Of a DNA stretch of 56,521 bases, positions 3 through 33,311 are shown in pieces (within the stretch, counting starts at the first letter, position 1; each line of letters begins with the position of its first letter). Source of the stretch: Deltaproteobacteria bacterium. Its GTDB lineage: Bacteria > Desulfobacterota > Desulfobacteria > Desulfobacterales > SURF-15. Position numbers and translations under genes: made by a program. The DNA is taken from assembly GCA_013349495.1 (NCBI GenBank), contig DUZK01000001.1:1-56521 (forward strand). Reading direction: 5' to 3'. The notes under the pieces were generated by a model that was not told the DNA's origin, ran no database searches, and was given only the letters and a program-made list of their open reading frames with translations.

Positions 3-74
3 ATCCGGGCCCTCGGTGTCTATCTTTGCGAGACCCACGGACCGGAACTCAAACGGTATTACCATCAGCTCCGG
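3..74 (+). other. C-terminal helix of an ACP domain whose start lies off-window
   Basis: IRALGVYLCETHGPEL aligns by eye with the ends of ACP1 (LESLAAFLCEAYADSL) and ACP3 (INRLAAYLAETYGGL). A linker and KS1 follow it. Confidence 0.5.
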
Positions 75-3000
75 CCGGAATCGGAAGATAAGGCATCAGA
101 CGCCGGTCCGGTGATCCAGACGGCGGGTTTACACCCGGTGGCCGAACAGCCGGAAGCCGTTTCCCTGCCGGCCGTATCCGAGGAACCGGTGGCCGTCGTC
201 GGCGCCTACGGGATCTTTCCACAATCAGAAGATCTAAGGGCTTTTTGGGACCATCTGGGGGCAAACCGGGACTTGATCACCGAAGTGCCAAAGGATCGGT
301 GGGACTGGAGCGCCTATCACAAGGGGTCGGCAGATGAAAAAACCTATCTGAAATGGGGTGGATTCATTGCCGGTGTCGACCGGTTCGATCCGCTCTTTTT
401 CAATATTTCACCCCGCGACGCCGAGATGATGGACCCCCAGCATCGTCTGTTCATTCAGACCGTCTGGAAAACCGTGGAAGACGCCGGGTACAGCGCCGCA
501 ACCCTGTCCGGACAATCGGTGGGGCTTTTCGTGGGTGTTCAGCACAACGATTATGTGCACCTGCTGGCAAGCCGGGCCGCGGCGCAGACGGCAACCGGAA
601 CCGGACATGCCATGCTGGCCAACCGCGTCTCCTATTTCATGAACTGGCACGGCCCCAGCGAAGCAGTGGACACCGCCTGTTCCAGCAGCCTCGTGGCGCT
701 GCATCGGGCCGTGAGATCGATTCGAAGCGGAGAGAGTCGACTCGCTGTTGCCGGCGGCGTGAGTCTGATGCTTTATCCCGGAACCATGATCGGTGCGGGT
801 GAACTCGGCGTGCTGTCTCCGGACGGACGATGCAAGACCTTCGACCGGAGCGCCAACGGATACGTCAAAGGAGAGGGGGTGGGGGCGGTGCTCTTAAAGC
901 CCCTGAACAAGGCCGTTGCGGACAACGATCACATATATGCGGTCATCAAGGCGACGGCCGTCAATCACGGCGGCAAGGCGAATTCGCTGACGGCTCCCAA
1001 TTCCGACGCCCAGGCCGCCCTTCTGACGGCTGCATACGAGGCGGCAGGGATAGACCCGGACACCGTGACGTATTTGGAACTGCACGGCACCGGCACCGAG
1101 CTGGGTGATCCTGTGGAAGTGGAGGGGATCAAGAAGGCCTTTTCAGATCTGGCCAAACGGACAGGCCGGCCGATCGAGCGAACCCGTTTCTGCGGACTCG
1201 GCGCAGTCAAGACCAACATCGGGCACCTGGAGCCGGCGTCCGGAATCGCCGGGGTGATAAAGGTGCTGCTTTCCATGGCGCACGGCAAACTGCCCGGAAC
1301 CCCGCATTTAAAAGAGTTGAACCCCTATATCGAACTGGAAGATACCCCGTTTTACGTGGTTGAAAAAACGAAACCCTGGAACCGGTTGGAAGACGGCAAC
1401 CGACGGCCGATACCGCGTCGGGCAGGGGTGAGTTCCTTCGGATTCGGCGGCGCCAACGCGCATGTGGTTCTTGAGGAATATCAAGAACCAGTGTTCAGGG
1501 TTCAGAGTTCAGAGTTCAAGGTTAAACCTCAACTTATAGTATTATCGGCCAAGAACGAAGAACGGCTTCTGGATTATGCCAAAGCGTTATTGCGGTTTAT
1601 GGATGAGTCGGCAAGGATGCCGGAGCCGTCCGAAGAGAAGGCATCTCGGGAACAGACCCGGGAAGCGCTCTCAACGCTGGTGGGTGACATTTTTGAGGTG
1701 GCAGCCAAGGATCTGGATCCGGATGAAACCTTTGAGTCCCTAGGGCTGGATCAAGTCGGATCAATCACTTTGGCGGACAAGGTCAATGAGCGATATGCTT
1801 TGACCGTAAACGCGTCCCATTTCATGGAATATTCGTCTATCAACAGACTGACGCAATACATCATCACAAATCACGCATCGCACATCGAGTATCGAGAATC
1901 GAGTATCAAGAATCGAGTATCAAATATCGAGCATCGAGCATCCAGTATCGAGAACATCGCCTTCACCCTCCAGGTCGGACGCGATGCCATGGCCCATCGG
2001 ATGGCCATGGTGGTTTCAGGTTTCAAAGACCTTCAGGGGAAGTTGACGCAATATATCCGGACTCAAAAAGAAGCAGAAGATCTCTTTCTGGGGAACATTA
2101 AAACGGACGAGGCAAAATCCGAAGGCCTGATCGAGGGGAAAGAAGGGAAAGCCTTTGTCGACAGCATCATAAAGGAGCGGAAGCTGAGTAAACTCGCGCG
2201 GCTGTGGGTATCCGGAACAGCCATCGATTGGATGACACTCTATCCCGACGATAAACCGCGACGGGTTTCGTTGCCCACCTACCCCTTTGCCGAAGACCGA
2301 TTTTGGATACCTGAAAAAGCAGGGGGCATGGCGCATGGGGCAGAGGGGAAAAGCAGCGCCGATCGTCTCCATCCGCTACTGGGAAGCAATACCTCGACGC
2401 TGAAAGAACAACAGTATACGACCCTGTTTACGGGGGAAGAGTTTTATCTTACGGATCATGTGGTGGCCGGGCGGAAGACCCTGCCGGGGGTAGCCTATCT
2501 CGAAATGGCCCGGGCTGCCGCCGAGATGGCGGGTGAACCGGGTATGAACCGGTTGTCGAATGTGGTCTGGATCCGCCCCATCGGGGTGACCGATGCGCCG
2601 CAAACGGTCCATATCCGCTTGATGCCCCAGGGGGAGGCCATCGGCTTTTACGTCGTTACCAAAGACGATGCCGGAAAAGACCGGGTCCACGCACAGGGTA
2701 AGATCTCTTCGGTCGGTTCCGATTCAGGCCCAAGGGATCGCCTCGACATTAAAGCCGTCAAGGCAGATTCCAAGGCAACCCTAAATCGGGACGACTGCTA
2801 CCGGATGTTCCGATCGGCAGGCCTTGATTACGGCCCCGGATTCCGAGTGGTCGAAAAAATATTTCTCACCGGGAAAAAAGCGCTGTCCCGGTGGGTGCTT
2901 CCCGAGGCATATCGGGAAAGCCGCGGGATGTTTGTTCTGCACCCGGCCATAATGGACGGGGCGCTCCAGACGGTGTTGGGATTGATGGGGCAAGTCGCAT

Positions 3001-6000
3001 CCGAAACCCCTTATCTCCCCTATACCATCGGAGAAGTGAAATGGTTTAGACCCCTTGGCTATCAGGGGTATGCCCTCGCCGGTTACGCAGGTAATCCGGG
3101 TTCCGGAGAATTGACCTTTGATATCGATCTTTTGGACGAAACCGGGGCGGTGGCGGTCGGTATGAAAGATTTTACCACAAGAGCCGTTAAACAAAAGACG
3201 GCGGCTCCGGTTCGGATCTATTATAAAGCGGAATGGGAAGCGTCGCCCGTCCGGTCCCATCGCGTCGAACCGGCATCACCGATACTGCTGTTCGATACCG
3301 ACACCGAGCGCCGGGATACCCTCAGTGGGCGGTTGAATACCGGCGTCATACTGGTTCTACCGGGTGAGCGGTATGAGCAGCTGGATGAAAAGACCTACAC
3401 GATTTGTCCCGAAGACCGTAAAGGATACCATCAGGTACTGTCTTGCCTGGCTGAAGCGGGACGCCTTCCGGAATGCATCGTTCACCTCTGGTCCCAGGAC
3501 GAATTTTCACCTGATAAACAAGCACTCGATAGACAGCTCGAACGGGGTTTTTATTCGATCTTCCATATCACACAGGCGTTTCTGGATCGGGTGCCGGCCG
3601 AATCCATCCGGCTCCTGTATCTGTTTCGGGAACCGGCCCACGGGGCCCAGCCCCAATACGCGGCCATGGCCGGATTTGTGAAGACGCTCCGTCTGGAACA
3701 CCCGAAACTGGCGTGCCGGACGATCGGCGTCGCCGAATCCATGTCGATGACCGAGGCGGTGATAACAGAGATACGGGGCGACGGCGGTATGGATATCCGG
3801 TATCGGGACAACCTTCGCTGGGAGCGCCGCCTTGAGACATTCGACCTTTTAGCCGATTCTGACGGCGGCGTCGGGCTGAAAGAAAACGGGGTCTACCTGC
3901 TGACCGGCGGTGCCGGCGGGCTCGGGTTGATCTTTGCCGATTTTCTGGCCCGAAAAACAAAGGCCAGACTCGTTTTGACCGGACGATCGGAATTGGATCG
4001 AACGCAAACCCAACGGATCCAAGCGCTGAATGATGCCGGGGCCCGGGTCATCTACATTCCGACGGATATCGCCCATACCGAGGCGGTGGTTCGGTTAAAG
4101 GACCGGATAAAGGCCCGGTTCGGTGAAATCAACGGCATCCTGCACGCGGCGGGCCTGACCCGAGATGCGACCATCGTAAAAAAGAATCCGGATGAAATGG
4201 CACCCATACTGGCCCCCAAGGTTTTCGGTACGGTATGCCTGGATGAGGTCTTTCAATCGGAACCGATCGATTTCTTCATGATGTTTTCATCGGTCGCGGC
4301 CATGATCGGAAACCCGGGCCAGTGCGATTACGCCTTTGCCAACAGCTTTATGGATCATTTTGTTACCCGGCGGGAGGCGCTGCGTAAAGCCGGAAAGCGG
4401 TATGGAAAGACCCTTTCCATCAACTGGCCCCTGTGGCGGGACGGCGGCATGGGGGTGGACCGCCAGACGGAGACCTTCCTAAAAGAGACCCTGGGAATGG
4501 TTTTGCTCGATTCGTCGGAAGGCTGGGAGGCCTTTGAACAGGGGCTCGCCTCCGGTTCGACCCGGTTTATGCTGATCAAGGGACAGCGCCCGAAGCTTGA
4601 AAGATGGATGGCGTACAAACCGGATGCGTCGTCATCGGTTCAAGGGGAAAGCGATGCCCCGGGGTTACGTGAAGCGGCCGGCAGAGCGTTGCGATCGATT
4701 GTCTCTGAGATTTTGAAGATGGATTTCAATGCCATCGATGCGGATGAAGAGATCAGTACTTACGGATTCGACTCCATCAGTTTTACGGAGCTTGCCAACC
4801 GGATCAACGGCAGCTTGGGCCTTGAGGTCACACCGGCGCTCTTTTTCGAATATACGACCCTGGAGAGTCTGGCGGCGTTTCTGTGCGAAGCCTACGCCGA
4901 CTCCCTGGCAGCCCATTTTCAAGGGAGACGTTCGAAATCCCCATCGATTGAAATAAAGAAATCCCCGTCCCAAAGCCGTTTCCGAATACCGGAGCCGGTT
5001 CCGGATGCCCCCCGGACAGCGGGTGAAATGCCGATTGCCGTGATCGGAATGAGTGCCGTGATGCCCGGATCCGAAAATCCGGAGAAATTCTGGCAACACC
5101 TGACAGCCGGTGACGACCTCATCAACGAGGTCCCGGCCGATCGGTGGGACTGGAAATCGTTGTATGGTGACCCTGCTACAGAGCCGAATAAAACCCGTGC
5201 CAAATGGGGCGGGTTCATTGCGGATGTGGATCGTTTCGATCCCCTCTTTTTCGGGATATCGCCGAAAGAAGCGGAACTCATGGATCCCCAGCAGCGGCTC
5301 TTTCTTGAAACCGTATGGAAAACCATTGAAGATGCGGGATACCGGGCAGCCGATGTCGCAGGGACCGATACCGGTCTGTTTGTGGGTGTGGCGGCCAATG
5401 ACTACGCGGAATTGCTGGGTCGTTGCGCTTCCGAGATCGAAGCGCACACCTCCACCGGTATGTCCCATTCCATGCTGCCGAACCGGATCTCCTATCTGCT
5501 GGACCTTCACGGACCCAGCGAACCCATCGATACGGCCTGTTCCAGTTCCCTTGTGGCCATTCATCGGGCTGTCGAGGCGATCCGAAGCGGCACCTGCGAA
5601 ATGGCCATTGCTGGCGGGGTGAACGTGATACTGACCCCCACGGCCACCATATCCTTTGACAAGGCCGGCATGTTGAGCCCGGACGGCCGATGCAAGACCT
5701 TTGATAAACGGGCCGACGGGTACGTGCGGGGGGAAGGCGTGGGAGCCGTAATGCTGAAGCCGATGGACCGCGCAGTGGCGGACGGAGACTGGATATATGC
5801 GGTGATCCGGGGAACCGCTGTAAATCACGGTGGAAAGGCTAACTCACTTACAGCCCCGAACCCCAAGGCTCAGACGAGCCTGATCGTCAAGGCCTATGAA
5901 CGGGCGAAGATCCCGGCCCATACCGTCGGTTACATCGAAGCCCACGGCACTGGCACATCTCTGGGCGATCCCATTGAAATCAATGCCCTGAAAAATGCCT

Positions 6001-9000
6001 TTTCCGCACTCTATGAGAGGGAAAAAAAGCCGATTCCCGAAGCCCCCTGCTGCGGACTGGGATCGGTGAAGACCAATATCGGGCATCTGGAAACCGCAGC
6101 CGGCATTGCCGGTGTCATCAAGGTGCTCCTGGCCTTGAAACACCGGAAACTGCCGCCGAACATCCACTTTGAGGAACTCAATCCCTATATCGAACTGGTC
6201 GGAAGCCCCTTTTTCATTGTCACTGAAAATCGGGACTGGGAGCCGCCCGTGGATGAAAACGGGAACCGGCTGCCCCGTCGGGCGGGGATCAGCTCCTTTG
6301 GTTTCGGCGGCGCCAATGCGCATGTGGTTCTTGAAGAATATCAAGAACCAGAGGTCAGGGGTGAGGGGTCAGAGGGCAGAGGGCATAGTGCAGAGAGCAT
6401 AGGGCAAGGGGGAAACAAAAGGGAGACCTTAGAAGAATCACAGAGGGAGTCGAGTATCGCGTCCCAGCTCATCGTGCTGTCGGCAAAGAATGAGGAACGG
6501 CTAAGAGAATATGCCAAACGAATGGCGGATTTTCTCGAAATTCAACATTCAAAACTAAAAATTAAAAATTTGAGCATAGCGGATATCGCCTATACCCTGC
6601 AGACGGGCCGGGAACCCTTTGAACGGCGGTTGGCTATTGTGGCAACCGATCTTAAAGATGCCGAAAGCAAACTGAAACAATTTGCCCAGGGCTCAGACGC
6701 CGTTGAGGGGCTGTTCCTGGGGCACACCAAAAGCAGTGGGATCCATACCGACTTGTTGACCAAAGGAGCAGCCGGGGAAGCCTTCCTGCAATTATCCATC
6801 GAGAAAAAGGAATTCCATAATCTCGGACAGCTCTGGGTGTCGGGTATCGATATCGACTGGAACCGGCTCCATGAAAACCTCGCTCCCCGGCGTATACCGC
6901 TTCCCACCTACCCTTTTGCCCGGGAACGATACTGGCTGCCGGTAGCAAAAGGCGCGCCTGCTGCGCCGCCTCCGGTGGTTTCTGCACCCCGCAAAAATGA
7001 TCCCAACAGCGCGCCTGTGGGGATCTTCTTTCGGCGCTTCGGTCAGGGGGCAGCCGATATCCCCCTTGAAAAACGGGTGGAAGCGGGCATTCAAGAGATT
7101 GCCGCAGAGATCGTCAAACTCGATGCGGGACGGCTCGATCCAGAAGAAAGCCTGGGGCTCTTCGGGTTCGATTCCATCACCCTTAAACAACTGAGCAATA
7201 AAATCGGCAGGCTGGTTGAGGTGGAGTTGCCGCCGTCCATTTTTTTCGCCCACGGAACCATCCGGGGATTGAGCCGATACCTGGTCGATACCTTTGGGAA
7301 CAAGATTCGGTCGATATATGGTGACGGTGGCGATTTGACTCCTGTCATACCGGGCACCGAAGACGGCGTCGAGCCCGTTGACACCAAGGCGGCATCCATC
7401 AATGACGCGACTCCGCCGGTAATGCCGGATATCCGGATTCCGGAGGCCGGCCGGTATCATGAACAAGATTTTCCGGTGGCCATCATCGGCGCCCACGGCC
7501 TGTTTCCCGAATCGCAAAACCTGACGGAATTCTGGAATCATCTGGAGGCGGCCGACCACCTCATTGGTGAAGTTCCCAAAGACCGGTGGAACTGGCAGGA
7601 TTTCTCCATCGATCCCGAGACCGGCAAAGAGCGGCCCTATGTCAAGTGGGGCGGATTCATCAAGGATGTGGATAAATTCGATCCCGCGTTTTTCAAGATT
7701 TCTCCCCGGGAAGCTGAGATGATGGATCCCCAGCACCGGCTTTTTACCGAAGTCGTGTGGAAGACCATCGAAGATGCGGGATACGATGCAACCGCCCTTT
7801 CCGACCGATTTATCGGAATCTTTGCCGGGTTGCAGTTCAACGATTACCAGCAGATGCTGGTGCGGCAAAGCAGGGGGGACGCCCAGATATCCACTGGAAC
7901 GGCCAACTCCATGTTGACCAATCGTATTTCATTTTTGATGAACTGGCACGGTCCCAGCGAATCGATCGACACGGCCTGTTCCGGCAGCCTGGTCGCCGTT
8001 CATCGGGCCGTCAAATCGATTCAAACCGGTGAGTGCGAGATGGCCGTTGCCGGGGGGGTGAGCCTGATGCTGTCTCCGGCATCCATGATTGGTGCCGGCA
8101 GCCTCGGCGTGCTCTCCCCCAAAGGCCGCTGCAAGGCCTTGGATAAAGATGCGGACGGATATGTCAAAGGTGAAGGGGTGGGGGCGGTTTTTTTGAAACC
8201 GCTTGATCGGGCCATTGCCGATCATGATCATATCTATGCCATAATCAGAGGGTCTGCGGTCAACCATGGCGGCAAGGCCACCTCGTTGACGGCTCCCAGC
8301 AGCGAAGCGCAGGCCGCCCTCCTGTATGCCGCCTATCGGAATGCGGGGATAGAGGCCGATACCGTTACCTTTCTGGAGTTGCACGGAACCGGAACCGAGC
8401 TGGGAGATCCGGTGGAGATCGACGGTATCAAAAAGGCGTTTGCCCATCTCCTGAACGGAAAAACGCCTGTTTCGGAAACCGATCCGTTCTGCGGGATCGG
8501 TTCGGTCAAGACCAATATCGGGCACCTGGAACCGGCGGCCGGTATTGCCGGGTTGTTTAAACTGATGCTCGCCATGGCGCACGGAAAACTTCCGGCGACG
8601 CTTCATTTAAAAGAACTCAACCCATTGATAAAATTGGAACAAACACCTTTTTACGTTGTGGATCAAACAAGGGCCTGGAAACGGCTCACCGACACCCACG
8701 GCAACCCCATCCCCAGGAGGGCCGGGGTCAGCGCCTTCGGGTTCGGCGGGACCAATGCACACATCATTTTGGAAGAATATGAACAAAATGAGGTCAGAGG
8801 TCAGGGGGCAGAGGTCAGGGATGAGCCTCAGCTCATCGTGCTGTCGGCAAAGAATGAGGAGCGCCTCAGGAAGTATGCAGAGGATATGGTCGAATTCATC
8901 GACCGTCAAAAATCGAAAACCCGCCACACGGACGGCGGACAAGTCGAGAATCGAAAACCCGCCACACATACGGCGGGCAAGTCGAGCATCGAGGACATCG

Positions 9001-12000
9001 CTTATACGCTGCAGGCGGGCCGGCAGCCGATGGCGGAACGACTGGCTCTGGTCGCTTCGACCCTTGAAGAATTGGCGTTAAAACTGAAACGCTTTGCCCA
9101 GGGGCATGACACCGTGGATGAACTTCATCGGGGCACCGTCCGGGTCGGTCAGAGCAGAGCAAGCCTTATGGTGGACGACAAAGAAGGGGAGTCGTATATC
9201 CTAAGCCTCATGAAGGGGTGGAAACTGGGCAAGTTGGCGAAGATGTGGGTCAACGGGGTCGATTTCGATTGGGATCTGCTCCATCCGGACAGGCACCCGT
9301 TCCGTGTTTCGCTTCCCACCTATCCCTTTGCCCGGGAGCGGTATTGGCTGCCCCAGGTTTCTGATGACAAGCGATATCAGACCGTTGAAACGCCCATGCC
9401 AGAGACAGAATCGATACCGGGGGCCGCCCCCGGATCACTCTGTTTCGAGCCCGACTGGAAGCTCTCCGCCATCGATATCGAGTCTGAATCGAAATCGCCC
9501 GGCGGCCCGCTGCTGATCCTGGGCGCCGGCGAGGCCGACAGAGACCTGTTAACGGGGCGCCTGAGCGGGGACATGGTTCTGGTTGTTTCCGGCAGTCGAT
9601 TCAGAAAAATCGATCCCCAAACCTATGAAATCGATCCGGCGGATACGGCCGATTATGAACGGCTGTTTCAGGCCCTGCAACAGAAACACGGCGTTCCGAA
9701 AACCGTGGTGCATCTCTGGGCACTCGATTCGAAGGTCGGGAAAATAGATGCGGATATGGAAACCCAACTCCAAAGGGGGGTATATTCGGTTTTCCTTCTG
9801 CTTAAGGCGATCGCCAACAGTCAATCCGACCCGGATACCCGGATCTTTTTCTTTGGCCCCGATGAACCGGTAAACCCGTTTTTCGAGGCGGTATCCGGAT
9901 ATGGCCGGTCCATCCGGTTCGCCATGCCGAAGGTGAATTTCACGACGGTTCAGGTGAGTGAGGCCGGCAAAGACCTGGCCGACATTATCTGTGCGGAAAT
10001 GACCCGCGAATCCGGGGAGGAATTTCCGGAGGTCCGCTACCGAAAGGGGCAAAGATACATACGGTCTTTCCGCCCCATCGCGTTGGGGACCGAAGGAACC
10101 GGTGTTGGGATCAGGCACAAAGGGGTCTATCTGATTACCGGCGGGGCCGGCGGGTTGGGAATGATACTGGCTCGATATTTAAAGGAAACCTACCGGGCCG
10201 TACCGATCCTTACGGGACGCTCTCCCCTGGCAGGGGAGAAGCACGCACGGCTCGAGGAGATTTTCGGGCCGGAAACGGAAGGGATCTATTTTCAAGCCGA
10301 TATCTCAAACCGTGAACAGATGATAGGCGTCATTGAAACGGTTCGGAAACGGTTCGGTCCCCTAAACGGTGTGATTCATGCGGCCGGCGTATCATCCATC
10401 GCTCCGATCCACATGAAGGATGCGGCGGAGTTTGCAGCCACAGTTAAACCGAAAATCCACGGCACTCTGGTGCTCGACAGTGTCACCCGGGAAGAGCCCC
10501 TCGATTTTTTTATGCTTTTCTCCTCCACGTCGGCCCTTTTGGGAGACTTCGGACAGGGCGATTATGCGGTGGCCAATCGATTCCTGGACGGATTTGCCCG
10601 TTACCGGGAAACGCTCAAGGCTCAGGGAGCCCGCCGGGGTCGAACCCTTTCCATCAATTGGCCCCTCTGGCGGGACGGCGGTCTCCATATGAATCCTGAA
10701 ATGGAGACCTTCTACTTTCAGACGTCCGGGATGACCTTTCTGGAGACGGAAACCGGCCTGACCTTTTTCGAGAGGGTGCTCAAAAGCGAGGCGTGCCAGG
10801 CAGGGGTGATTTCAGGCGATCTCGACCGGATAAGTCGATTTTTAGGGATGGACCGAATGGAAAGGGCGCCGGATGAGGCAATGGATGTTGAAAACGTCGG
10901 AACCGGAAACCTCGTTTCGGACCTCCGGCAAATCGCCGCCCGGGTCTTGAAGACCGATGCCGAAAAACTGGATGCGGACGAAAGCCTGGCCGACTTTGGA
11001 TTCGATTCCATCATGCTGAAACTGTTGGCGGATGACCTGAATGCGGTCTATGGCATCGAGGTCTCTCCCTCCCTGTTTTTTGCCCACCCCACCATCAACC
11101 GATTGGCTGCATACCTGGCGGAAACATATGGCGGGCTGGTTAAGCACCCGGAGCCTAAGCCGATGAAAGCGGCCCGACCCGTTTGGAAGGTTGAGGACGA
11201 AGCCGACTTTTCCGCCACGGCCGGAGATACAACCGATTTATCCCATGAACCGATCGCCGTTGTGGGCATGCACGGCGTCTTTCCGGGCTCCCGGAATCTT
11301 AGCGAGTTTTGGAAGCATCTTGAGAACGGAATAAATCTTGTCAGCGAAATTCCAAAAGACCGGTGGGACTGGCGGGACTATTTCGGTGATCCCACCCTTG
11401 ATCCGGGCAAGACCGATTCCAAGTGGGGCGGGTTCATCACCGATATGGACAAATTCGATCCCCGGTTTTTCAAGATCTCCCCTCGGGAAGCCGAAATGAT
11501 GGATCCCCAGCACCGGCTCTTTATCGAAACCGTCTGGAAGGCGGTGGAAGACGCCGGCATTCGGGCGTCTTCATTATCCGGGGCCATTGTGGGGGTCTTT
11601 GCCGGGCTGCAATTCAAGGATTACGAGCAGTTGATGGCCAAAGGGAACCAAAGCAACGCCTATTCGGGAACCGGGATCGCCATGGCCATGCTGGCCAACC
11701 GGGTGTCCTATCTGATGAACTGGCATGGCCCCAGCGAGACCATCGACACGGCCTGTTCCAGCAGCTTGGTTGCAGTCAACCGGGCGGTCAAATCGCTGCG
11801 CAACCGGGAGTGCGATATGGCCGTTGCCGGAGGCGTGAGTCTGCTCCTGTCCCCATTGACTCTTATCGGGGCGAGTCAACTCGGTGTGTTGTCTCCGGAC
11901 GGGCGATGCAGAACCCTCGATAAGCGGGCCAACGGGTACGTTAAGGGAGAAGGGGTGGGGGCGGTGCTGTTGAAACCGCTGAGCCGGGCCATGGCCGACG

Positions 12001-14075
12001 AAGATCCCATCCATGCGGTGATCAGGGGGGCTGCGGTGAACCATGGCGGGTCTGCGGCCTCGTTGACCGCACCGAATCCGGCAGCCCAATCGGCGCTGCT
12101 TATAAAAGCATACGCGGAAGCGGCAGTCGATCCGGACACCGTTTCCTATCTGGAGCTCCACGGAACCGGCACCGAGCTGGGGGACCCGGTGGAAATAGAC
12201 GGCATCAAACAGGCCTTTGATCAGATGTCAAGCAAGCTGAACAGACCGATCCGGCCGTCTCACCGTTGCGGACTCGGATCGGTTAAGACCAACATCGGGC
12301 ACCTCGAACCGGCGGCCGGTATCGCCGCCCTGGTTAAAGTGATACTTTCTTTAAAACATGGCAAGTTGCCGGGAATATTAAACTTTAAGTCGCTTAATCC
12401 TTTTATCGATTTGAAGGGAACGCCATTCTACGTGGTTGAAAAAACAAAGGCATGGGAGCGGCTAAAGGATGAAGCCGGCCGTGACGTTCCCCGCCGGGCC
12501 GGGGTGAGCTCTTTCGGGTTCGGCGGGACCAATGCGCATGTGGTTCTTGAAGAGTATCAAAAAGAAGAGTTCAGGGTTCAGGGTTCAGGGTTCAGGGTTG
12601 ATCAGCAACTTATCGTTTTGTCAGCAAAGAATAAGGAACGCCTCAGGGAGTATGCGGCTTCCTTTGCAAAGTTCTTAGAACTCGAAACTCGAAACTCGAA
12701 ACTCGAAAATATTGCTTATACCCTTCAGGTGGGCAGAGAAGAGATGCCTGAACGGCTGGCCATTCCAACCGACGACCTGAATGAACTGGTGGCCAAGCTG
12801 AATTTATTTGTCGACGGCCGAACGTCCATGCCCGGGGTCTATCGGGGGCGCGTCCCATCCGGTTCGGCGGTCTCGCCGGATTCCACGTTGCAGGAAATCG
12901 ACCAGGGGAAACTCACTGAACTGATTCAACAACGACGATTGGATCGATTGGCCGAAGCCTGGATTCGGGGAGCCGACATCGATTGGGAGCTTCTTAACAA
13001 AGACGCAAACCCCCGCCGCACTTCCTTGCCGACCTATCCGTTTGCAAGGGAACGGTACTGGATTCCCAACAAAAAAGCGGGAACGGCGCATGGGGCAATG
13101 CGGTACGGGGGCGAAGCCGTGACCGTGCTTCATCCTTTGATCGATACCAACGAGTCGACCTTTGAGGAACAGCGGTTTAAAAAGGTTCTGCGGAAAACAG
13201 ATTTCTTTTTGAAAGATCATGTGATCGGCGGTCGGCCGATACTGCCGGGGGTTGTTTATCTGGAGATGGCCAGGGCCGCCGGGGACCTGGCCTTTCAACG
13301 ATCGGCGGTCACCCGGATATCCAACGCGGTATGGACGACTCCCATCATGGTTTCGGATGAACCGACAGCGGTGTACATACGCCTCAAACCGGGTGGAACG
13401 CGGGTCGCCTTCGAGGTCTATTCCGATGGTGAAAGCGGGGGAAATCCGATCCATGCCCAGGGCTGGCTCTTTTATGGGCGGCCGAAGCTTCCGGATGTGG
13501 CCCCGGTCGACATCGAAACGATGATCGAGCGGCTGCCGGAAGTTCGGCATCGCGGCGAATGCTACCGGTTGTTTCAAGCCGCAGGGCTTGATTACGGGCC
13601 CGCTTTTCAAGCCATCCACACCCTCTATTCGGACGGGAAAGAGGCCTTGTCCCGCCTCGTGCTGCCCGAATCCGTGAAAGACACGCTTCAGACATTCGTC
13701 CTCCACCCCTCCCTGATGGACGGTGCATTGCAGACCGTCAGCGGGTTAATGGGCGGAGAAACGGTCGATTCCCCATATCTCCCCTTTGTAGTAAAGGAGG
13801 TGCTGTGGCTGAGACCGCTGACCCCGGATTGCTATGCCCATGCCCTTCCGGTTGAAGGCGGAGGGGAATCGGAGATCAGACAATTCGATGTCAAGATATT
13901 CGATGGGTCCGGAAAACCGCTGGTGATCATCAACGGGTTTTCCTTAAAGGCGTTTGAAAAAGGTTCGAGTAAAATATTAAAAAAAGATCAAAACATATTG
14001 CAATTATTGGAAAAATTATCTAAAAATAAAATCAGCGCGCAAGATGTGAAACAACAAATCGGATTGATGAAATAG
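3..14075 (+). CDS. AT-less (trans-AT type) modular polyketide synthase, 5' end off-window. Visible domains: [ACP tail]-KS-(pseudo-ACP)-DH-KR-ACP-KS-ACP-KS-KR-ACP-KS-DH
   Basis: Frame 3 is open from nt 3. The first codons (IRALGVYLCETHGPELKRYYHQL) look like the last helix of an upstream ACP, matching later ACP ends ..LAAFLCEAY and ..LAAYLAETY. The GTG at 111 in the ORF track is therefore not the true start. The gene has four KS (DTACSSS/DTACSGS, HGTGT, KTNIGHLE), 2 DH, 2 KR and 3 ACP. No GHSxG acyltransferase motif occurs anywhere. Every KS is followed by QLIVLSAKNEERL...YTLQVGR...LPTYPFARERYW, the linker typical of trans-AT PKS. Confidence 0.95.
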   Translation: MRALGVYLCETHGPELKRYYHQLRPESEDKASDAGPVIQTAGLHPVAEQPEAVSLPAVSEEPVAVVGAYGIFPQSEDLRAFWDHLGANRDLITEVPKDRWDWSAYHKGSADEKTYLKWGGFIAGVDRFDPLFFNISPRDAEMMDPQHRLFIQTVWKTVEDAGYSAATLSGQSVGLFVGVQHNDYVHLLASRAAAQTATGTGHAMLANRVSYFMNWHGPSEAVDTACSSSLVALHRAVRSIRSGESRLAVAGGVSLMLYPGTMIGAGELGVLSPDGRCKTFDRSANGYVKGEGVGAVLLKPLNKAVADNDHIYAVIKATAVNHGGKANSLTAPNSDAQAALLTAAYEAAGIDPDTVTYLELHGTGTELGDPVEVEGIKKAFSDLAKRTGRPIERTRFCGLGAVKTNIGHLEPASGIAGVIKVLLSMAHGKLPGTPHLKELNPYIELEDTPFYVVEKTKPWNRLEDGNRRPIPRRAGVSSFGFGGANAHVVLEEYQEPVFRVQSSEFKVKPQLIVLSAKNEERLLDYAKALLRFMDESARMPEPSEEKASREQTREALSTLVGDIFEVAAKDLDPDETFESLGLDQVGSITLADKVNERYALTVNASHFMEYSSINRLTQYIITNHASHIEYRESSIKNRVSNIEHRASSIENIAFTLQVGRDAMAHRMAMVVSGFKDLQGKLTQYIRTQKEAEDLFLGNIKTDEAKSEGLIEGKEGKAFVDSIIKERKLSKLARLWVSGTAIDWMTLYPDDKPRRVSLPTYPFAEDRFWIPEKAGGMAHGAEGKSSADRLHPLLGSNTSTLKEQQYTTLFTGEEFYLTDHVVAGRKTLPGVAYLEMARAAAEMAGEPGMNRLSNVVWIRPIGVTDAPQTVHIRLMPQGEAIGFYVVTKDDAGKDRVHAQGKISSVGSDSGPRDRLDIKAVKADSKATLNRDDCYRMFRSAGLDYGPGFRVVEKIFLTGKKALSRWVLPEAYRESRGMFVLHPAIMDGALQTVLGLMGQVASETPYLPYTIGEVKWFRPLGYQGYALAGYAGNPGSGELTFDIDLLDETGAVAVGMKDFTTRAVKQKTAAPVRIYYKAEWEASPVRSHRVEPASPILLFDTDTERRDTLSGRLNTGVILVLPGERYEQLDEKTYTICPEDRKGYHQVLSCLAEAGRLPECIVHLWSQDEFSPDKQALDRQLERGFYSIFHITQAFLDRVPAESIRLLYLFREPAHGAQPQYAAMAGFVKTLRLEHPKLACRTIGVAESMSMTEAVITEIRGDGGMDIRYRDNLRWERRLETFDLLADSDGGVGLKENGVYLLTGGAGGLGLIFADFLARKTKARLVLTGRSELDRTQTQRIQALNDAGARVIYIPTDIAHTEAVVRLKDRIKARFGEINGILHAAGLTRDATIVKKNPDEMAPILAPKVFGTVCLDEVFQSEPIDFFMMFSSVAAMIGNPGQCDYAFANSFMDHFVTRREALRKAGKRYGKTLSINWPLWRDGGMGVDRQTETFLKETLGMVLLDSSEGWEAFEQGLASGSTRFMLIKGQRPKLERWMAYKPDASSSVQGESDAPGLREAAGRALRSIVSEILKMDFNAIDADEEISTYGFDSISFTELANRINGSLGLEVTPALFFEYTTLESLAAFLCEAYADSLAAHFQGRRSKSPSIEIKKSPSQSRFRIPEPVPDAPRTAGEMPIAVIGMSAVMPGSENPEKFWQHLTAGDDLINEVPADRWDWKSLYGDPATEPNKTRAKWGGFIADVDRFDPLFFGISPKEAELMDPQQRLFLETVWKTIEDAGYRAADVAGTDTGLFVGVAANDYAELLGRCASEIEAHTSTGMSHSMLPNRISYLLDLHGPSEPIDTACSSSLVAIHRAVEAIRSGTCEMAIAGGVNVILTPTATISFDKAGMLSPDGRCKTFDKRADGYVRGEGVGAVMLKPMDRAVADGDWIYAVIRGTAVNHGGKANSLTAPNPKAQTSLIVKAYERAKIPAHTVGYIEAHGTGTSLGDPIEINALKNAFSALYEREKKPIPEAPCCGLGSVKTNIGHLETAAGIAGVIKVLLALKHRKLPPNIHFEELNPYIELVGSPFFIVTENRDWEPPVDENGNRLPRRAGISSFGFGGANAHVVLEEYQEPEVRGEGSEGRGHSAESIGQGGNKRETLEESQRESSIASQLIVLSAKNEERLREYAKRMADFLEIQHSKLKIKNLSIADIAYTLQTGREPFERRLAIVATDLKDAESKLKQFAQGSDAVEGLFLGHTKSSGIHTDLLTKGAAGEAFLQLSIEKKEFHNLGQLWVSGIDIDWNRLHENLAPRRIPLPTYPFARERYWLPVAKGAPAAPPPVVSAPRKNDPNSAPVGIFFRRFGQGAADIPLEKRVEAGIQEIAAEIVKLDAGRLDPEESLGLFGFDSITLKQLSNKIGRLVEVELPPSIFFAHGTIRGLSRYLVDTFGNKIRSIYGDGGDLTPVIPGTEDGVEPVDTKAASINDATPPVMPDIRIPEAGRYHEQDFPVAIIGAHGLFPESQNLTEFWNHLEAADHLIGEVPKDRWNWQDFSIDPETGKERPYVKWGGFIKDVDKFDPAFFKISPREAEMMDPQHRLFTEVVWKTIEDAGYDATALSDRFIGIFAGLQFNDYQQMLVRQSRGDAQISTGTANSMLTNRISFLMNWHGPSESIDTACSGSLVAVHRAVKSIQTGECEMAVAGGVSLMLSPASMIGAGSLGVLSPKGRCKALDKDADGYVKGEGVGAVFLKPLDRAIADHDHIYAIIRGSAVNHGGKATSLTAPSSEAQAALLYAAYRNAGIEADTVTFLELHGTGTELGDPVEIDGIKKAFAHLLNGKTPVSETDPFCGIGSVKTNIGHLEPAAGIAGLFKLMLAMAHGKLPATLHLKELNPLIKLEQTPFYVVDQTRAWKRLTDTHGNPIPRRAGVSAFGFGGTNAHIILEEYEQNEVRGQGAEVRDEPQLIVLSAKNEERLRKYAEDMVEFIDRQKSKTRHTDGGQVENRKPATHTAGKSSIEDIAYTLQAGRQPMAERLALVASTLEELALKLKRFAQGHDTVDELHRGTVRVGQSRASLMVDDKEGESYILSLMKGWKLGKLAKMWVNGVDFDWDLLHPDRHPFRVSLPTYPFARERYWLPQVSDDKRYQTVETPMPETESIPGAAPGSLCFEPDWKLSAIDIESESKSPGGPLLILGAGEADRDLLTGRLSGDMVLVVSGSRFRKIDPQTYEIDPADTADYERLFQALQQKHGVPKTVVHLWALDSKVGKIDADMETQLQRGVYSVFLLLKAIANSQSDPDTRIFFFGPDEPVNPFFEAVSGYGRSIRFAMPKVNFTTVQVSEAGKDLADIICAEMTRESGEEFPEVRYRKGQRYIRSFRPIALGTEGTGVGIRHKGVYLITGGAGGLGMILARYLKETYRAVPILTGRSPLAGEKHARLEEIFGPETEGIYFQADISNREQMIGVIETVRKRFGPLNGVIHAAGVSSIAPIHMKDAAEFAATVKPKIHGTLVLDSVTREEPLDFFMLFSSTSALLGDFGQGDYAVANRFLDGFARYRETLKAQGARRGRTLSINWPLWRDGGLHMNPEMETFYFQTSGMTFLETETGLTFFERVLKSEACQAGVISGDLDRISRFLGMDRMERAPDEAMDVENVGTGNLVSDLRQIAARVLKTDAEKLDADESLADFGFDSIMLKLLADDLNAVYGIEVSPSLFFAHPTINRLAAYLAETYGGLVKHPEPKPMKAARPVWKVEDEADFSATAGDTTDLSHEPIAVVGMHGVFPGSRNLSEFWKHLENGINLVSEIPKDRWDWRDYFGDPTLDPGKTDSKWGGFITDMDKFDPRFFKISPREAEMMDPQHRLFIETVWKAVEDAGIRASSLSGAIVGVFAGLQFKDYEQLMAKGNQSNAYSGTGIAMAMLANRVSYLMNWHGPSETIDTACSSSLVAVNRAVKSLRNRECDMAVAGGVSLLLSPLTLIGASQLGVLSPDGRCRTLDKRANGYVKGEGVGAVLLKPLSRAMADEDPIHAVIRGAAVNHGGSAASLTAPNPAAQSALLIKAYAEAAVDPDTVSYLELHGTGTELGDPVEIDGIKQAFDQMSSKLNRPIRPSHRCGLGSVKTNIGHLEPAAGIAALVKVILSLKHGKLPGILNFKSLNPFIDLKGTPFYVVEKTKAWERLKDEAGRDVPRRAGVSSFGFGGTNAHVVLEEYQKEEFRVQGSGFRVDQQLIVLSAKNKERLREYAASFAKFLELETRNSKLENIAYTLQVGREEMPERLAIPTDDLNELVAKLNLFVDGRTSMPGVYRGRVPSGSAVSPDSTLQEIDQGKLTELIQQRRLDRLAEAWIRGADIDWELLNKDANPRRTSLPTYPFARERYWIPNKKAGTAHGAMRYGGEAVTVLHPLIDTNESTFEEQRFKKVLRKTDFFLKDHVIGGRPILPGVVYLEMARAAGDLAFQRSAVTRISNAVWTTPIMVSDEPTAVYIRLKPGGTRVAFEVYSDGESGGNPIHAQGWLFYGRPKLPDVAPVDIETMIERLPEVRHRGECYRLFQAAGLDYGPAFQAIHTLYSDGKEALSRLVLPESVKDTLQTFVLHPSLMDGALQTVSGLMGGETVDSPYLPFVVKEVLWLRPLTPDCYAHALPVEGGGESEIRQFDVKIFDGSGKPLVIINGFSLKAFEKGSSKILKKDQNILQLLEKLSKNKISAQDVKQQIGLMK
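189..1481 (+). other. KS1 ketosynthase domain
   Basis: VAVVGAYGIFP...DTACSSS (Cys codon 678-680)...ELHGTGTELGDP...KTNIGHLEPASG...NAHVVLEEY. Confidence 0.9.
1493..1527. repeat. Post-KS1 heptanucleotide tandem repeat
   Basis: GTTCAGG GTTCAGA GTTCAGA GTTCAAG GTTAAAC, between EEYQEP and QLIVLSAKNEERL. Confidence 0.9.
1659..1868 (+). other. Carrier-protein-like insert (pseudo-ACP) inside the KS1 flanking linker, lacking the phosphopantetheine Ser
   Basis: REALSTLVGDIFEVAAKDLDPDETFESLGLDQVGSITLADKVNERYALTVNASHFMEYSSINRLTQYI has the ACP helix pattern. It sits between SAKNEERL and FTLQVGR. The GxDS Ser position is Gln (caa 1752-1754). Confidence 0.7.
1876..1952. repeat. Second-linker heptanucleotide repeat, KS1 linker (11 units NATCGAG)
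   Basis: CATCGCA CATCGAG TATCGAG AATCGAG TATCAAG AATCGAG TATCAAA TATCGAG CATCGAG CATCCAG TATCGAG, just before IAFTLQVGR. Confidence 0.9.
2370..3190 (+). other. DH1 dehydratase domain
   Basis: HPLLGSNTS, LTDHVVAGRKTLPG (HxxxGxxxxP), GLDYGPGF, HPAIMDGALQ. Confidence 0.85.
3210..4455 (+). other. KR1 ketoreductase domain (B-type signature)
   Basis: Structural half, then GVYLLTGGAGGLG (nt 3888-3926), HAAGLTRDA (Asp at the LDD position), YAFANSF, INWPLWRDGG. Confidence 0.85.
4680..4895 (+). other. ACP1
   Basis: STYGFDSISFTELANRI; Ser codon 4773-4775. Confidence 0.9.
5031..6341 (+). other. KS2 ketosynthase domain
   Basis: IAVIGMSAVMPGSE...DTACSSS (Cys 5538-5540)...EAHGTGTSLGDP...KTNIGHLETAAG. 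Confidence 0.9.
6353..6415. repeat. Post-KS2 heptanucleotide tandem repeat (9 degenerate units)
   Basis: GGTCAGG GGTGAGG GGTCAGA GGGCAGA GGGCATA GTGCAGA GAGCATA GGGCAAG GGGGAAA. Confidence 0.85.
6551..6571. repeat. Second-linker heptanucleotide repeat, KS2 linker (pure A/T)
   Basis: AAAACTA AAAATTA AAAATTT inside a gene of about 60% GC, just before SIADIAYTLQ. Confidence 0.7.
7070..7295 (+). other. ACP2 (directly after the KS2 linker; minimal KS-ACP module)
   Basis: LGLFGFDSITLKQLSNKI; Ser codon 7173-7175. No DH/KR lies between LPTYPFARERYW (6901-6942) and this ACP. Confidence 0.9.
7475..8780 (+). other. KS3 ketosynthase domain
   Basis: VAIIGAHGLFP...DTACSGS (Cys 7977-7979)...ELHGTGTELGDP...KTNIGHLEPAAG. 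Confidence 0.9.
8792..8819. repeat. Post-KS3 heptanucleotide tandem repeat
   Basis: GGTCAGA GGTCAGG GGGCAGA GGTCAGG. Confidence 0.9.
8911..8986. repeat. Tandem 38-nt direct repeat, KS3 linker
   Basis: 8911-8948 and 8949-8986 are 35/38 identical (AATCGAAAACCCGCCACAC..ACGGCGG.CAAGTCGAG). Each copy contains a CCGCC/GGCGG inverted repeat. The two copies are read in different frames. Confidence 0.95.
9440..10690 (+). other. KR2 ketoreductase domain (A-type-like, no LDD Asp)
   Basis: GVYLITGGAGGLG (about 10126-10165), HAAGVSSIAP, YAVANRF, INWPLWRDGG. Confidence 0.85.
10910..11130 (+). other. ACP3
   Basis: LADFGFDSIMLKLLADDL; Ser codon 11007-11009. Confidence 0.9.
11250..12558 (+). other. KS4 ketosynthase domain
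   Basis: IAVVGMHGVFP...DTACSSS (Cys 11754-11756)...ELHGTGTELGDP...KTNIGHLEPAAG. Confidence 0.9.
12569..12596. repeat. Post-KS4 heptanucleotide tandem repeat (4 perfect units)
   Basis: GTTCAGG x4, followed by a degenerate GTTGATC. Confidence 0.95.
12679..12706. repeat. Second-linker heptanucleotide repeat, KS4 linker (4 perfect units)
   Basis: AACTCGA x4, encoding ELETRNSKLEN, just before IAYTLQVGR. Confidence 0.95.
13131..13960 (+). other. DH2 dehydratase domain (last catalytic domain of the first PKS protein)
   Basis: HPLIDTNES, LKDHVIGGRPILPG, GLDYGPAF, HPSLMDGALQ. Confidence 0.85.
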
Positions 14076-32516: not shown

Positions 32517-33311
32517 ATGCAACATATGGGGAGCAAACTAAATTTAAAAACGAATGAAATCCATCTGTGGTTTGCGTTTCCGGATGAAATTCGGGACCCG
32601 AATCTGCTTTCTGAATATAAGAAACTGCTTACTCCGGAAGAGGGGAAAAAACAGCAGCGATTCTACTTTGAAAAACATCGCCATCAATATCTGGTGACCC
32701 GTGCCCTGGTTCGAACAACGCTTTCCCGGTACACGGGCATTCCGGTTTCCGATCTCAGATTTGATCGAAACAAATACGGCAGACCGGAGCTCGTGGTCGT
32801 TCCCAAAGACTTTCCCATTCGGTTCAATCTGTCTCATACAGACGGACTCATTGCCTGTGCAGTTGTGCTGAATCAGGACATAGGGGTGGATGTTGAAGAC
32901 ATGACGCGCAGGGAGATATCCCTTGAAACTGCGGATCGTTTTTTTTCCAAAACCGAGGTTCGTGATCTCCATCAAGTGCTTGAGAGCAAAAAACGAGATC
33001 GATTCTTTGAATATTGGACGCTTAAGGAGTCGTATATTAAAGCGCGGGGCATGGGATTGTCCTTACCGTTGGAACAATTCAGCTTTCACCTATCGGAAAA
33101 TGAATCGCTGAGAATTTCTTTTGATCCAAGGTTGTCCGATGATCCGGATCGCTGGCGGTTTTGGCTGCTGAAACCCACCGGGCGTCACAAAGCAGCAGTT
33201 GCAATTTGTGGAGAAAACCGGGGCGCCTATGAATTAACGATTCGGAAAGCGGTTCCGTTGTCGGCAGCGGAAGATTTCCCATGCGCCATTGTAAAACACT
33301 CGGATATATGA
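32517..33311 (+). CDS. Sfp-type 4'-phosphopantetheinyl transferase
   Basis: RFNLSHTDGLIACAV, IGVDVEDM, FFEYWTLKESYIKARG. Confidence 0.9.
   Translation: MQHMGSKLNLKTNEIHLWFAFPDEIRDPNLLSEYKKLLTPEEGKKQQRFYFEKHRHQYLVTRALVRTTLSRYTGIPVSDLRFDRNKYGRPELVVVPKDFPIRFNLSHTDGLIACAVVLNQDIGVDVEDMTRREISLETADRFFSKTEVRDLHQVLESKKRDRFFEYWTLKESYIKARGMGLSLPLEQFSFHLSENESLRISFDPRLSDDPDRWRFWLLKPTGRHKAAVAICGENRGAYELTIRKAVPLSAAEDFPCAIVKHSDI

What the first reader, a model, noticed from the sequence alone, without database searches (positions are those of the whole stretch)
1659..1868. Pseudo-carrier-protein domain (Ser->Gln) inserted in the KS1 flanking subdomain
An insert of about 70 aa with the full ACP helix pattern lies between SAKNEERL..YAKALLRFMDE and IAFTLQVGR. 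The other four KS linkers have only 15-30 residues at this point. The motif that should read GxDS reads LGLDQVGS (caa at 1752-1754), so it cannot be phosphopantetheinylated at the canonical site. An almost identical arrangement recurs after KS6 (YGFDQIG). Conservation of the same Ser->Gln change in two copies, across the GC break, argues for selection rather than decay. It could be a docking or recruitment surface, for example for the free-standing AT or another trans-acting enzyme. I do not recall such an insert being described.
Basis: partly seen in the sequence, partly recalled or inferred. Interest (0 to 1): 0.6.

Follow-up and report, generated by a model that had tools for sequence, protein, structure and literature searches.

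The report
Serine-less carrier-protein domain nested in ketosynthase
Two ketosynthases of this trans-AT polyketide synthase carry, in a surface loop of their flanking subdomain, a well-folded acyl-carrier-protein look-alike that lacks the cofactor-bearing serine. The same nested domain recurs under purifying selection in well over a hundred other trans-AT synthases, and I found no published description of it.

Summary
Window 1608-1955 is a 116-residue insert in the alpha1-alpha2 loop of the KS1 flanking subdomain. The other four KSs have 10-33 residues there.

- **Fold:** the core (1659-1874) matches Pfam PP-binding end to end (E 6e-14). AlphaFold2 gives pLDDT 93-97. It superposes on solved carrier proteins at 0.8-0.9 Å.
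- **Missing serine:** Gln (caa 1752-1754) replaces the phosphopantetheine Ser. A second copy sits after KS6 (22090-22512, Gln at 22309-22311).
- **Not a recent break:** I collected 128 full inserts at the same site in 114 proteins, plus 40 in named genomes of many phyla. Ser occurs in 5/128 and 0/40.
- **Gln is not conserved:** that position reads Pro 38%, Ala, Thr, Gln, Leu and others. What is conserved is the fold, the Gly-(Phe/Leu)-Asp turn and an extra-acidic loop I.
- **Selection:** five orthologous pairs give dN/dS 0.17-0.53 for the core.
- **Distribution:** insert presence tracks neither KS phylogeny nor module composition closely. It is enriched on condensation-competent KSs.
- **Function:** unproven. 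Most likely it is a tethered, non-carrier ACP mimic used for protein-protein contacts.

No solved KS structure contains it and I found no paper describing it. This scan had already noted the same feature on other DNA (e1-2381512, e1-4234776).

The parts
183..1451 (+). KS1 catalytic core (aa 61-483); Cys, HGTGT and NIGH motifs present
   Evidence: Pfam ketoacyl-synt and Ketoacyl-synt_C; own KS HMM; motifs read
1530..1607 (+). Flanking subdomain (FSD) strand beta1 and helix alpha1 (QLIVLSAKNEERLLDYAKALLRFMDE)
   Evidence: AF2 of KS1-FSD gives E456-462 and H465-484; aligned to solved trans-AT KS-FSD structures up to this point
1608..1658 (+). N-terminal tether of the insert (17 aa, low complexity)
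   Evidence: pLDDT below 50 at model residues 484-491; family median N-tether is 18 aa
1659..1874 (+). Pseudo-ACP core: four helices of a carrier-protein fold, net charge -7
   Evidence: Pfam PP-binding 2-67/67, E 6e-14; AF2 pLDDT 93-97; Foldseek against 4hkg, 8ahq_C and 2liu gives TM 0.76-0.93 and rmsd 0.8-1.0; charge
1752..1754 (+). caa = Gln at the position of the phosphopantetheine-accepting Ser (LGLDQ)
   Evidence: column 31 of the ACP/pseudo-ACP alignment is Ser in 98% of 1303 true ACPs
1875..1955 (+). C-terminal tether (27 aa), encoded by a 7-nt tandem array (1884-1954, ATCGAGT x ~10)
   Evidence: TRF; pLDDT below 50 at model residues 571-592
1956..2312 (+). Rest of the FSD: alpha2 (IAFTLQVGR), beta2, alpha3, beta3, helices at the LINKS/AT-equivalent site, and LPTYPF (2271-2288)
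   Evidence: Aligns to PksJ 4na1/4na2 and 7zma FSDs; AF2 secondary structure; Pfam RhiE-like_linker
22090..22512 (+). Second copy in the KS6 FSD, flank to flank. Core is about 22204-22431, Gln caa at 22309-22311, 7-nt array at 22424-22457
   Evidence: Pfam PP-binding E 9.5e-15; best match of copy 1 in the window, 45% identity and 76 bits

Best explanation
The insert is a member of a widespread, apparently undescribed family. It is an acyl-carrier-protein-fold domain that has lost the phosphopantetheine serine. It is nested in the alpha1-alpha2 loop of the ketosynthase flanking subdomain of trans-AT PKSs and is held by two flexible tethers of about 18 and 22 residues.

It is not a carrier. It is kept by purifying selection as a strongly acidic ACP mimic that makes protein-protein contacts.

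Shown:
- fold;
- absence of Ser across the family;
- nesting site;
- tethers;
- selection;
- decoupling from KS phylogeny and from module type;
- enrichment on condensation-competent KSs.

Inferred: what it binds. My leading guess (about 0.3) is that it occupies or organises an ACP-docking surface of the KS-FSD itself, on its own or a laterally neighbouring module. In that role it would act as a tethered placeholder or gate during the elongation cycle. Second (about 0.25) is module-specific recruitment of a trans-acting, ACP-recognising enzyme such as the AT. Third (about 0.2) is a purely architectural spacer or packing element.
For: - **Fold.** Pfam PP-binding matches full length in both copies. 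AF2 pLDDT is 93-97 with four helices. The top 50 Foldseek PDB hits are nearly all carrier proteins or complexes containing one. The best are 4hkg, 8ahq_C and 2liu, with rmsd 0.8-1.0 Å over 75-79 columns.
- **Family.** There are 128 full inserts at the same loop in 114 proteins. Another 40 occur in named genomes: Paenibacillus, Brevibacillus, Sorangium, Chondromyces, Desulfatirhabdium, Parabeggiatoa, Aminicenantes, Chloroflexota, Acidobacteriota, Bacteroidota and others. None has a stop codon.
- **Ser position.** Ser in 5/128 and 0/40. Gly(-3) is kept in 120/128 and Asp/Glu(-1) in 113/128.
- **Selection.** dN/dS of the core is 0.17-0.53 in five orthologous pairs. With tethers it is 0.23-0.66, against 0.16-0.37 for the KS.
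- **Changed constraints.** The helix III region (canonical TLFFEY) is relaxed. Loop I acidic positions are more conserved. Mean net charge is -7.2 against -5.1 for 1303 true ACPs, p 2e-13.
- **Tethers.** Low pLDDT on both sides in the KS-FSD model. Median tether lengths are 18 and 22 aa.
- **Context.** HGTGT is present in 92% of insert-bearing KSs against 76% of others (p 3e-5). The upstream module is DH-KR-ACP in 48% against 28% (p 2e-4).
- **Origin within the window.** The two copies are each other's best match, not copies of a neighbouring ACP.
Against: - No binding partner was tested, and no coordinates or PAE were available. The position of the domain relative to the KS is unknown.
- The contextual enrichments are modest and come from non-independent, insert-selected proteins.
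- A decoy that competes for an ACP site could equally be inhibitory noise.
- 5/128 copies keep Ser, so some members might still be modified.
- The conserved Gly-x-Asp turn can be explained by fold stability alone.
- dN/dS of 0.44-0.66 in the two least diverged pairs is only weakly below 1.
Confidence: 0.6

Rival explanations
1. Docking site that recruits the free-standing trans-AT (or another trans-acting enzyme such as a trans-ER) to this particular module.
For: - The domain is an ACP look-alike, and ATs recognise ACPs.
- It is depleted on KS0-type (non-elongating) KSs, whose modules need no malonyl loading: HGTGT 92% against 76%.
- It sits in the subdomain historically called the 'AT docking domain' (own knowledge).
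Against: - Only 2 of at least 14 KSs of this assembly line have it, and usually 1-3 per protein elsewhere. Many trans-AT PKSs, including all solved KS-FSDs, have none.
- There is no strong link to any module composition.
- A mimic that binds the AT's ACP site would compete with real ACPs.
- No AT gene is in the window or on contig C10, so co-occurrence could not be examined.
Confidence: 0.2
2. Functionless relic: an ACP captured in a permissive loop by recombination, tolerated and slowly decaying.
For: - The loop is an expansion hot spot. KS3 has a 38-nt tandem duplication there, and 7-nt arrays flank the insert.
- Insert presence is scattered on the KS and FSD trees: 78 against about 108 changes, and 62 against about 87.
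- The helix III motif is relaxed.
- One truncated copy exists (P0058).
Against: - 168 copies without stops in many phyla.
- dN/dS is 0.17-0.33 in well-diverged pairs.
- AF2 confidence is very high.
- Some positions are more conserved than in true ACPs, and the extra acidity is systematic.
- Two diverged copies (45% identity) are retained in one assembly line.
Confidence: 0.1
3. Still a working carrier that is modified at a non-canonical residue, for example Ser587 three residues after the Gln in copy 1.
For: Copy 1 reads LGLDQVGS with a Ser at +3. 5/128 family members have Ser at the canonical place.
Against: - Copy 2 has Leu at +3 (YGFDQIGL). The family column at +3 is Leu in 51%, so there is no conserved alternative Ser or Thr.
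- Every insert-bearing module examined that is followed by another KS has its own canonical ACP.
- PPTases act on the Ser at the N-terminus of helix II (own knowledge).
Confidence: 0.03

Closest known systems
Canonical ACP domains of trans-AT PKSs (Pfam PP-binding, PF00550; e.g. VirA ACP5b 8ahq/4ca3, CurA ACP 2liu)
   Same: - Four-helix fold with rmsd 0.8-1.0 Å.
- The Glu-Tyr-Gly-Phe-Asp turn before helix II.
- The hydrophobic core pattern and overall acidity.
   Different: - No Ser (Pro, Ala, Thr, Gln, Leu and others instead).
- Nested inside the KS flanking subdomain, not placed after the processing domains.
- More acidic (-7.2 against -5.1), and the helix III motif TLFFEY is relaxed.
- The module has its own true ACP as well.
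LINKS motif of trans-AT KS flanking subdomains (Gay et al. 2016; described in bioRxiv 10.1101/2023.02.11.528132)
   Same: An insertion in the FSD of trans-AT KSs that is thought to serve protein-protein contacts and not catalysis.
   Different: - LINKS is a short helical motif at the site where cis-AT PKSs carry the AT, after beta3.
- The pseudo-ACP is a 70-aa four-helix domain in the earlier alpha1-alpha2 loop.
- KS1 still has helices at the LINKS site.
Catalytically dead or pseudo-domains kept as scaffolds in megasynthases: psi-KR and psi-ME of animal FAS, KS0, dead ATs (own knowledge; scan notes e1-2747327, e1-2694359)
   Same: A recognisable fold retained under selection after loss of the defining catalytic or attachment residue.
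   Different: Those sit at their ancestral position in the domain order. This one is nested in a loop of another subdomain and moves independently of its host KS.
KS C-terminal DH-docking (DHD) regions of trans-AT PKSs (Jenner et al. 2018, reviewed in PMC9113145)
   Same: A KS-appended element dedicated to recruiting another PKS component.
   Different: DHD is an intrinsically disordered tail on KSs that lack an FSD. The pseudo-ACP is a folded domain within an intact FSD.

Membership tests
Carrier proteins (PP-binding, PF00550) as functional ACPs | Four-helix carrier-protein fold | tested here: met
   Pfam 2-67/67, E 6e-14 and 9.5e-15; AF2 pLDDT 93-97; Foldseek TM 0.89-0.93 to 4hkg and 8ahq_C
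Carrier proteins (PP-binding, PF00550) as functional ACPs | Conserved Ser at the N-terminus of helix II (GxDS) that accepts phosphopantetheine | tested here: not met
   Gln in both window copies. Family: Ser in 5/128 and 0/40, against 98% in 1303 true ACPs
Carrier proteins (PP-binding, PF00550) as functional ACPs | Actual phosphopantetheinylation and acyl loading | not testable with these tools
   Needs intact-protein MS with the cluster's PPTase (window 32517-33311)
Carrier proteins (PP-binding, PF00550) as functional ACPs | Position in the module after the processing domains and before the next KS | tested here: not met
   Lies between FSD alpha1 and alpha2. Module contexts DH-KR-ACP, KR-ACP and others still follow it
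LINKS motif | Short helical insert at the AT-equivalent site of the FSD (after beta3) | tested here: not met
   The insert is in the alpha1-alpha2 loop. The AT/LINKS site lies downstream (model residues about 645-670)
LINKS motif | Mediates lateral KS-KS filament contacts | not testable with these tools
   Needs a structure or EM
trans-AT PKS KS-FSD unit | KS followed by an AT-less flanking subdomain ending in LPTYPFx5W | tested here: met
   LPTYPF at aa 757 (nt 2271); aligns to PksJ, PksL and 7zma KS-FSD structures on both sides of the insert; no Acyl_transf_1 hit in P0001 or P0002
Serine-less ACP nested in the FSD (the family defined here and in scan note e1-2381512) | PP-binding-like domain between ...LSAKN-helix and AYTLQVGR, no Ser, flexible tethers | tested here: met
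   Both window copies score 141 and 156 bits, full length, on the 43-sequence family HMM; alignment

The most novel reading that the evidence does not exclude
The nested serine-less ACP is a built-in ACP mimic that competes with real ACPs for a docking site on the KS-FSD or on the trans-AT. It would thereby gate chain transfer or elongation (directionality, anti-stuttering) or hold trans enzymes at selected modules. That would be a new regulatory or organisational layer in trans-AT assembly lines, and a portable cassette that recombines independently of its host KS.
Probability: 0.3. Interest if true: 0.75.

Novelty: new variant of a known kind. Interest (0 to 1): 0.55.

Why it matters
Trans-AT PKSs are major targets for engineering, and the KS-FSD unit is the favoured recombination boundary.

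- An unrecognised, selected domain inside the FSD would mislead automated annotation. It scores as PP-binding, so modules look as if they have an extra ACP.
- It could affect chimera design.
- It may reveal how ACP traffic or trans-acting enzymes are organised at particular modules.
- It is directly testable in culturable hosts that carry it (Bacillus atrophaeus, Brevibacillus formosus, Paenibacillus, Sorangium).

Tried and rejected
- **Regex-based domain architecture** was too noisy. I replaced it with HMMs built in the sandbox.
A 6-sequence alignment extended into AYTLQVGREAMEERLA worked.
- **Homologue search with the insert alone, without flanks,** found only 2 relatives because of the word-index limit.
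- **The macrolactin MlnG lead from scan note e1-2381512** could not be verified. MlnG did not appear among the listed hits and I had no way to fetch it by name.
- **Literature:** nine full-text searches found no description. Terms included pseudo-ACP, ACP-like, inactive ACP, flanking subdomain, LINKS, 'lacks the serine' and KS-ACP-DH. The LINKS paper PMC4738151 is not held. The 'inactive ACP' in PMC10921412 is an engineered mutant.
- **Strict link to a module type:** rejected, since enrichments are only mild.
- **Co-inheritance with the KS or FSD:** rejected, since clustering on both trees is weak.
- **Recent duplication of a neighbouring ACP:** rejected.
- **Relative placement of the domain on the KS** could not be read, because no coordinates or PAE are returned.

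Full report
**1. What is in the window**

The + strand carries two trans-AT PKS genes:
- ORF1, 3..14075, which is 5'-open. Its order is KS1-[insert]-DH-KR-ACP-KS2-ACP-KS3-KR-ACP-KS4-DH.
- ORF2, 14080..25683. Its order is KR-ACP-KS5-DH-KR-ACP-KS6-[insert]-KR-ACP-TE.

Downstream lie a carbamoyltransferase, a glycosyltransferase, a metallophosphoesterase, a CxxCxxCC protein, a PRMT-like methyltransferase and an Sfp-type PPTase.

The window is a whole contig of a 3.87-Mb MAG. Contig C10 of the same MAG carries what looks like the upstream part of the line, with eight more KSs and no insert.

**2.

- After KS1, the flanking subdomain (FSD) starts normally with strand QLIVLSAK and helix NEERLLDYAKALLRFMDE.
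- 116 residues then intervene before IAFTLQVGR (nt 1608-1955). KS2-KS5 have about 10-33 residues at this point.
- All solved trans-AT KS-FSD structures align to the query in two blocks that skip exactly this segment. These include PksJ 4na1, PksL 5e5n and 7zma.
- The core (1659-1874) matches Pfam PP-binding over profile positions 2-67 of 67, with E 6e-14. Copy 2 (22090-22512) scores E 9.5e-15.
- The Ser of GxDS is Gln in both copies: caa at 1752-1754 and at 22309-22311.

**3. Fold**

AF2 was run on the 150-residue segment with a 39-sequence alignment.
- It gives pLDDT 93-97 across the insert and the four helices of a carrier protein.
- Foldseek against the PDB returns mostly carrier proteins or complexes that contain one. 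The best are 4hkg, VirA ACP5b 8ahq_C and CurA ACP 2liu, with TM 0.76-0.93 and rmsd 0.8-1.0 Å.

In a model of the whole KS1-FSD (pTM 0.80) the domain keeps its helices at pLDDT 70-87. Segments below pLDDT 50 flank it on both sides, so it hangs on two flexible tethers. No coordinates were available, so its placement on the KS is unknown.

**4. It is a family, not a local accident**

- A region-restricted homologue search and a profile search of 1.84 billion representative proteins gave 128 full-length inserts. All sit at the same loop, in 114 trans-AT PKS proteins.
- A scan of species-representative genomes added 40 more in named organisms, none with a stop codon. They include:
  - Firmicutes: Paenibacillus, Brevibacillus, Tumebacillus;
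  - myxobacteria: Sorangium, Chondromyces;
  - Desulfatirhabdium, Candidatus Parabeggiatoa, Breoghania, Aureimonas;
  - Aminicenantes, Chloroflexota, Acidobacteriota, Bacteroidota and Ignavibacteria.
- Loop length is bimodal. The median is 8 residues beyond the helix without the insert, against 110 with it.
- In 400 sampled genomes of the window's own phylum, only one other genome has the insert.

**5. The serine position**

| Set | Residue at the Ser position |
|---|---|
| 128 inserts | Pro 48, Ala 13, Thr 13, Gln 11, Leu 11, Arg 7, Val 5, Ser 5, others 15 |
| 40 genome copies | Pro 15, Ala 9, Leu 5, Thr 4, Gln 2, no Ser |
| 1303 true ACPs from the same proteins | Ser 98% |

The family-wide signal is 'anything but Ser', with the preceding Gly (120/128) and Asp/Glu (113/128) retained.

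**6. Selection and altered constraints**

- In five orthologous pairs, dN/dS of the 70-residue core is 0.44, 0.17, 0.53, 0.33 and 0.18.
- Including tethers it is 0.23-0.66, against 0.16-0.37 for the adjacent KS.
- Column by column, the pseudo-ACPs lose the conserved helix III motif of true ACPs (P-T-L-F-F-E-Y).
- They gain conservation in helix I and at three acidic loop I positions.
- They are more acidic: mean net charge -7.2 against -5.1, p 2e-13. Both window copies are -7.

**7. Where it occurs**

- Module context is only mildly biased. The upstream module is DH-KR-ACP in 48% against 28% (p 2e-4). The downstream module is DH-ACP in 18% against 9%.
- Insert-bearing KSs are mostly condensation-competent: HGTGT in 92% against 76%, p 3e-5.
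- These samples are insert-selected and not independent, so the tests overstate significance.
- On a KS tree, insert presence needs 78 changes against about 108 for shuffled labels. On an FSD tree with the insert removed it needs 62 against about 87.
- The pseudo-ACP cores cluster with each other. 89 of 128 fall in one clade with only 4 true ACPs intruding, and there are 16 label changes among 302 leaves. All these trees are FastTree trees of short or paralogous sequences and are noisy.
- In the window, KS1 groups with KS3 and KS4, and KS6 groups with KS2 and KS5. Yet the two pseudo-ACPs are each other's best match, at 45% identity and 76 bits, against 33-53 bits to the six true ACPs.
- The domain therefore behaves as a cassette whose history is partly decoupled from its host KS.

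**8. Mechanism**

Shown: a folded, acidic, non-acylatable ACP look-alike on two flexible tethers, under purifying selection, on elongating KSs.

Inferred: it mimics an ACP in protein-protein recognition. My probabilities are:
- engaging or gating an ACP-docking surface of the KS-FSD: 0.3;
- module-specific recruitment of a trans enzyme such as the AT: 0.25;
- architectural packing: 0.2;
- functionless relic: 0.1;
- cryptic carrier: 0.03.

The AT-docking idea is weakened because only 2 of at least 14 KSs here carry the insert, and many trans-AT PKSs have none.

**9. Known relatives and novelty**

The insertion site differs from that of the LINKS motif and of the cis-AT's AT domain, which both lie after beta3. 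No solved structure contains the insert. Nine literature searches found no description.

This scan had already flagged the same feature in other genomes (e1-2381512 and e1-4234776). I reproduced its recurrence independently. I could not verify the MlnG example.

I rate it a new variant of a known kind: a pseudo-domain of the carrier-protein fold. It is moderately interesting and directly testable.

Noticed in passing
window 1489-1518, 1884-1954, 6349-6410, 8790-8818, 12569-12599, 12679-12708, 17403-17440, 22046-22080, 22424-22457: Tandem arrays of 7-nt units (not a multiple of 3) encode the low-complexity linkers after almost every KS, and both C-terminal tethers of the pseudo-ACPs. They may promote recombination or length variation at domain boundaries.
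   Followed up: partly
window 8911-8992: A 38-nt tandem duplication (2.2 copies, 90% identical) lies in the same FSD alpha1-alpha2 loop of KS3 that holds the pseudo-ACP in KS1 and KS6. The loop is evidently tolerant of expansion.
   Followed up: no
G000 contig C10 (35,663 bp, - strand): Probable upstream part of the same assembly line. It has ORFs of 4019, 5904, 357 (MT-ACP, possibly a frame break), 1366 (ER-KS-DH) and 305 aa, the last running off the contig end. It carries eight KSs and none has the insert. No AT gene is on this contig.
   Followed up: partly
window 1-25683: GC is 0.56-0.57 up to about 17.4 kb and 0.47 from there to the end of ORF2. Both pseudo-ACP cores are about 10 GC points below their own KS (0.495 against 0.60, and 0.405 against 0.493).
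   Followed up: partly
proteins P0226 (aa 2518-2663), P0147 (1365-1507, 4497-4629), P0168 (4198-4338), P0041 (4122-4254): Five of 128 nested domains keep a Ser at the canonical position (GFDS, GLDS, GLES, GINS, GFTS), although their modules also have ordinary ACPs. They could be modifiable intermediates or reversions.
   Followed up: partly
protein P0058, aa 2723-2856: A truncated version of the insert lacks loop I and the Gly-x-Asp turn. This is a possible decaying copy.
   Followed up: no
window 32517-33311: An Sfp-type PPTase gene is encoded in the cluster. It is the natural partner for testing whether the pseudo-ACP is modified.
   Followed up: no
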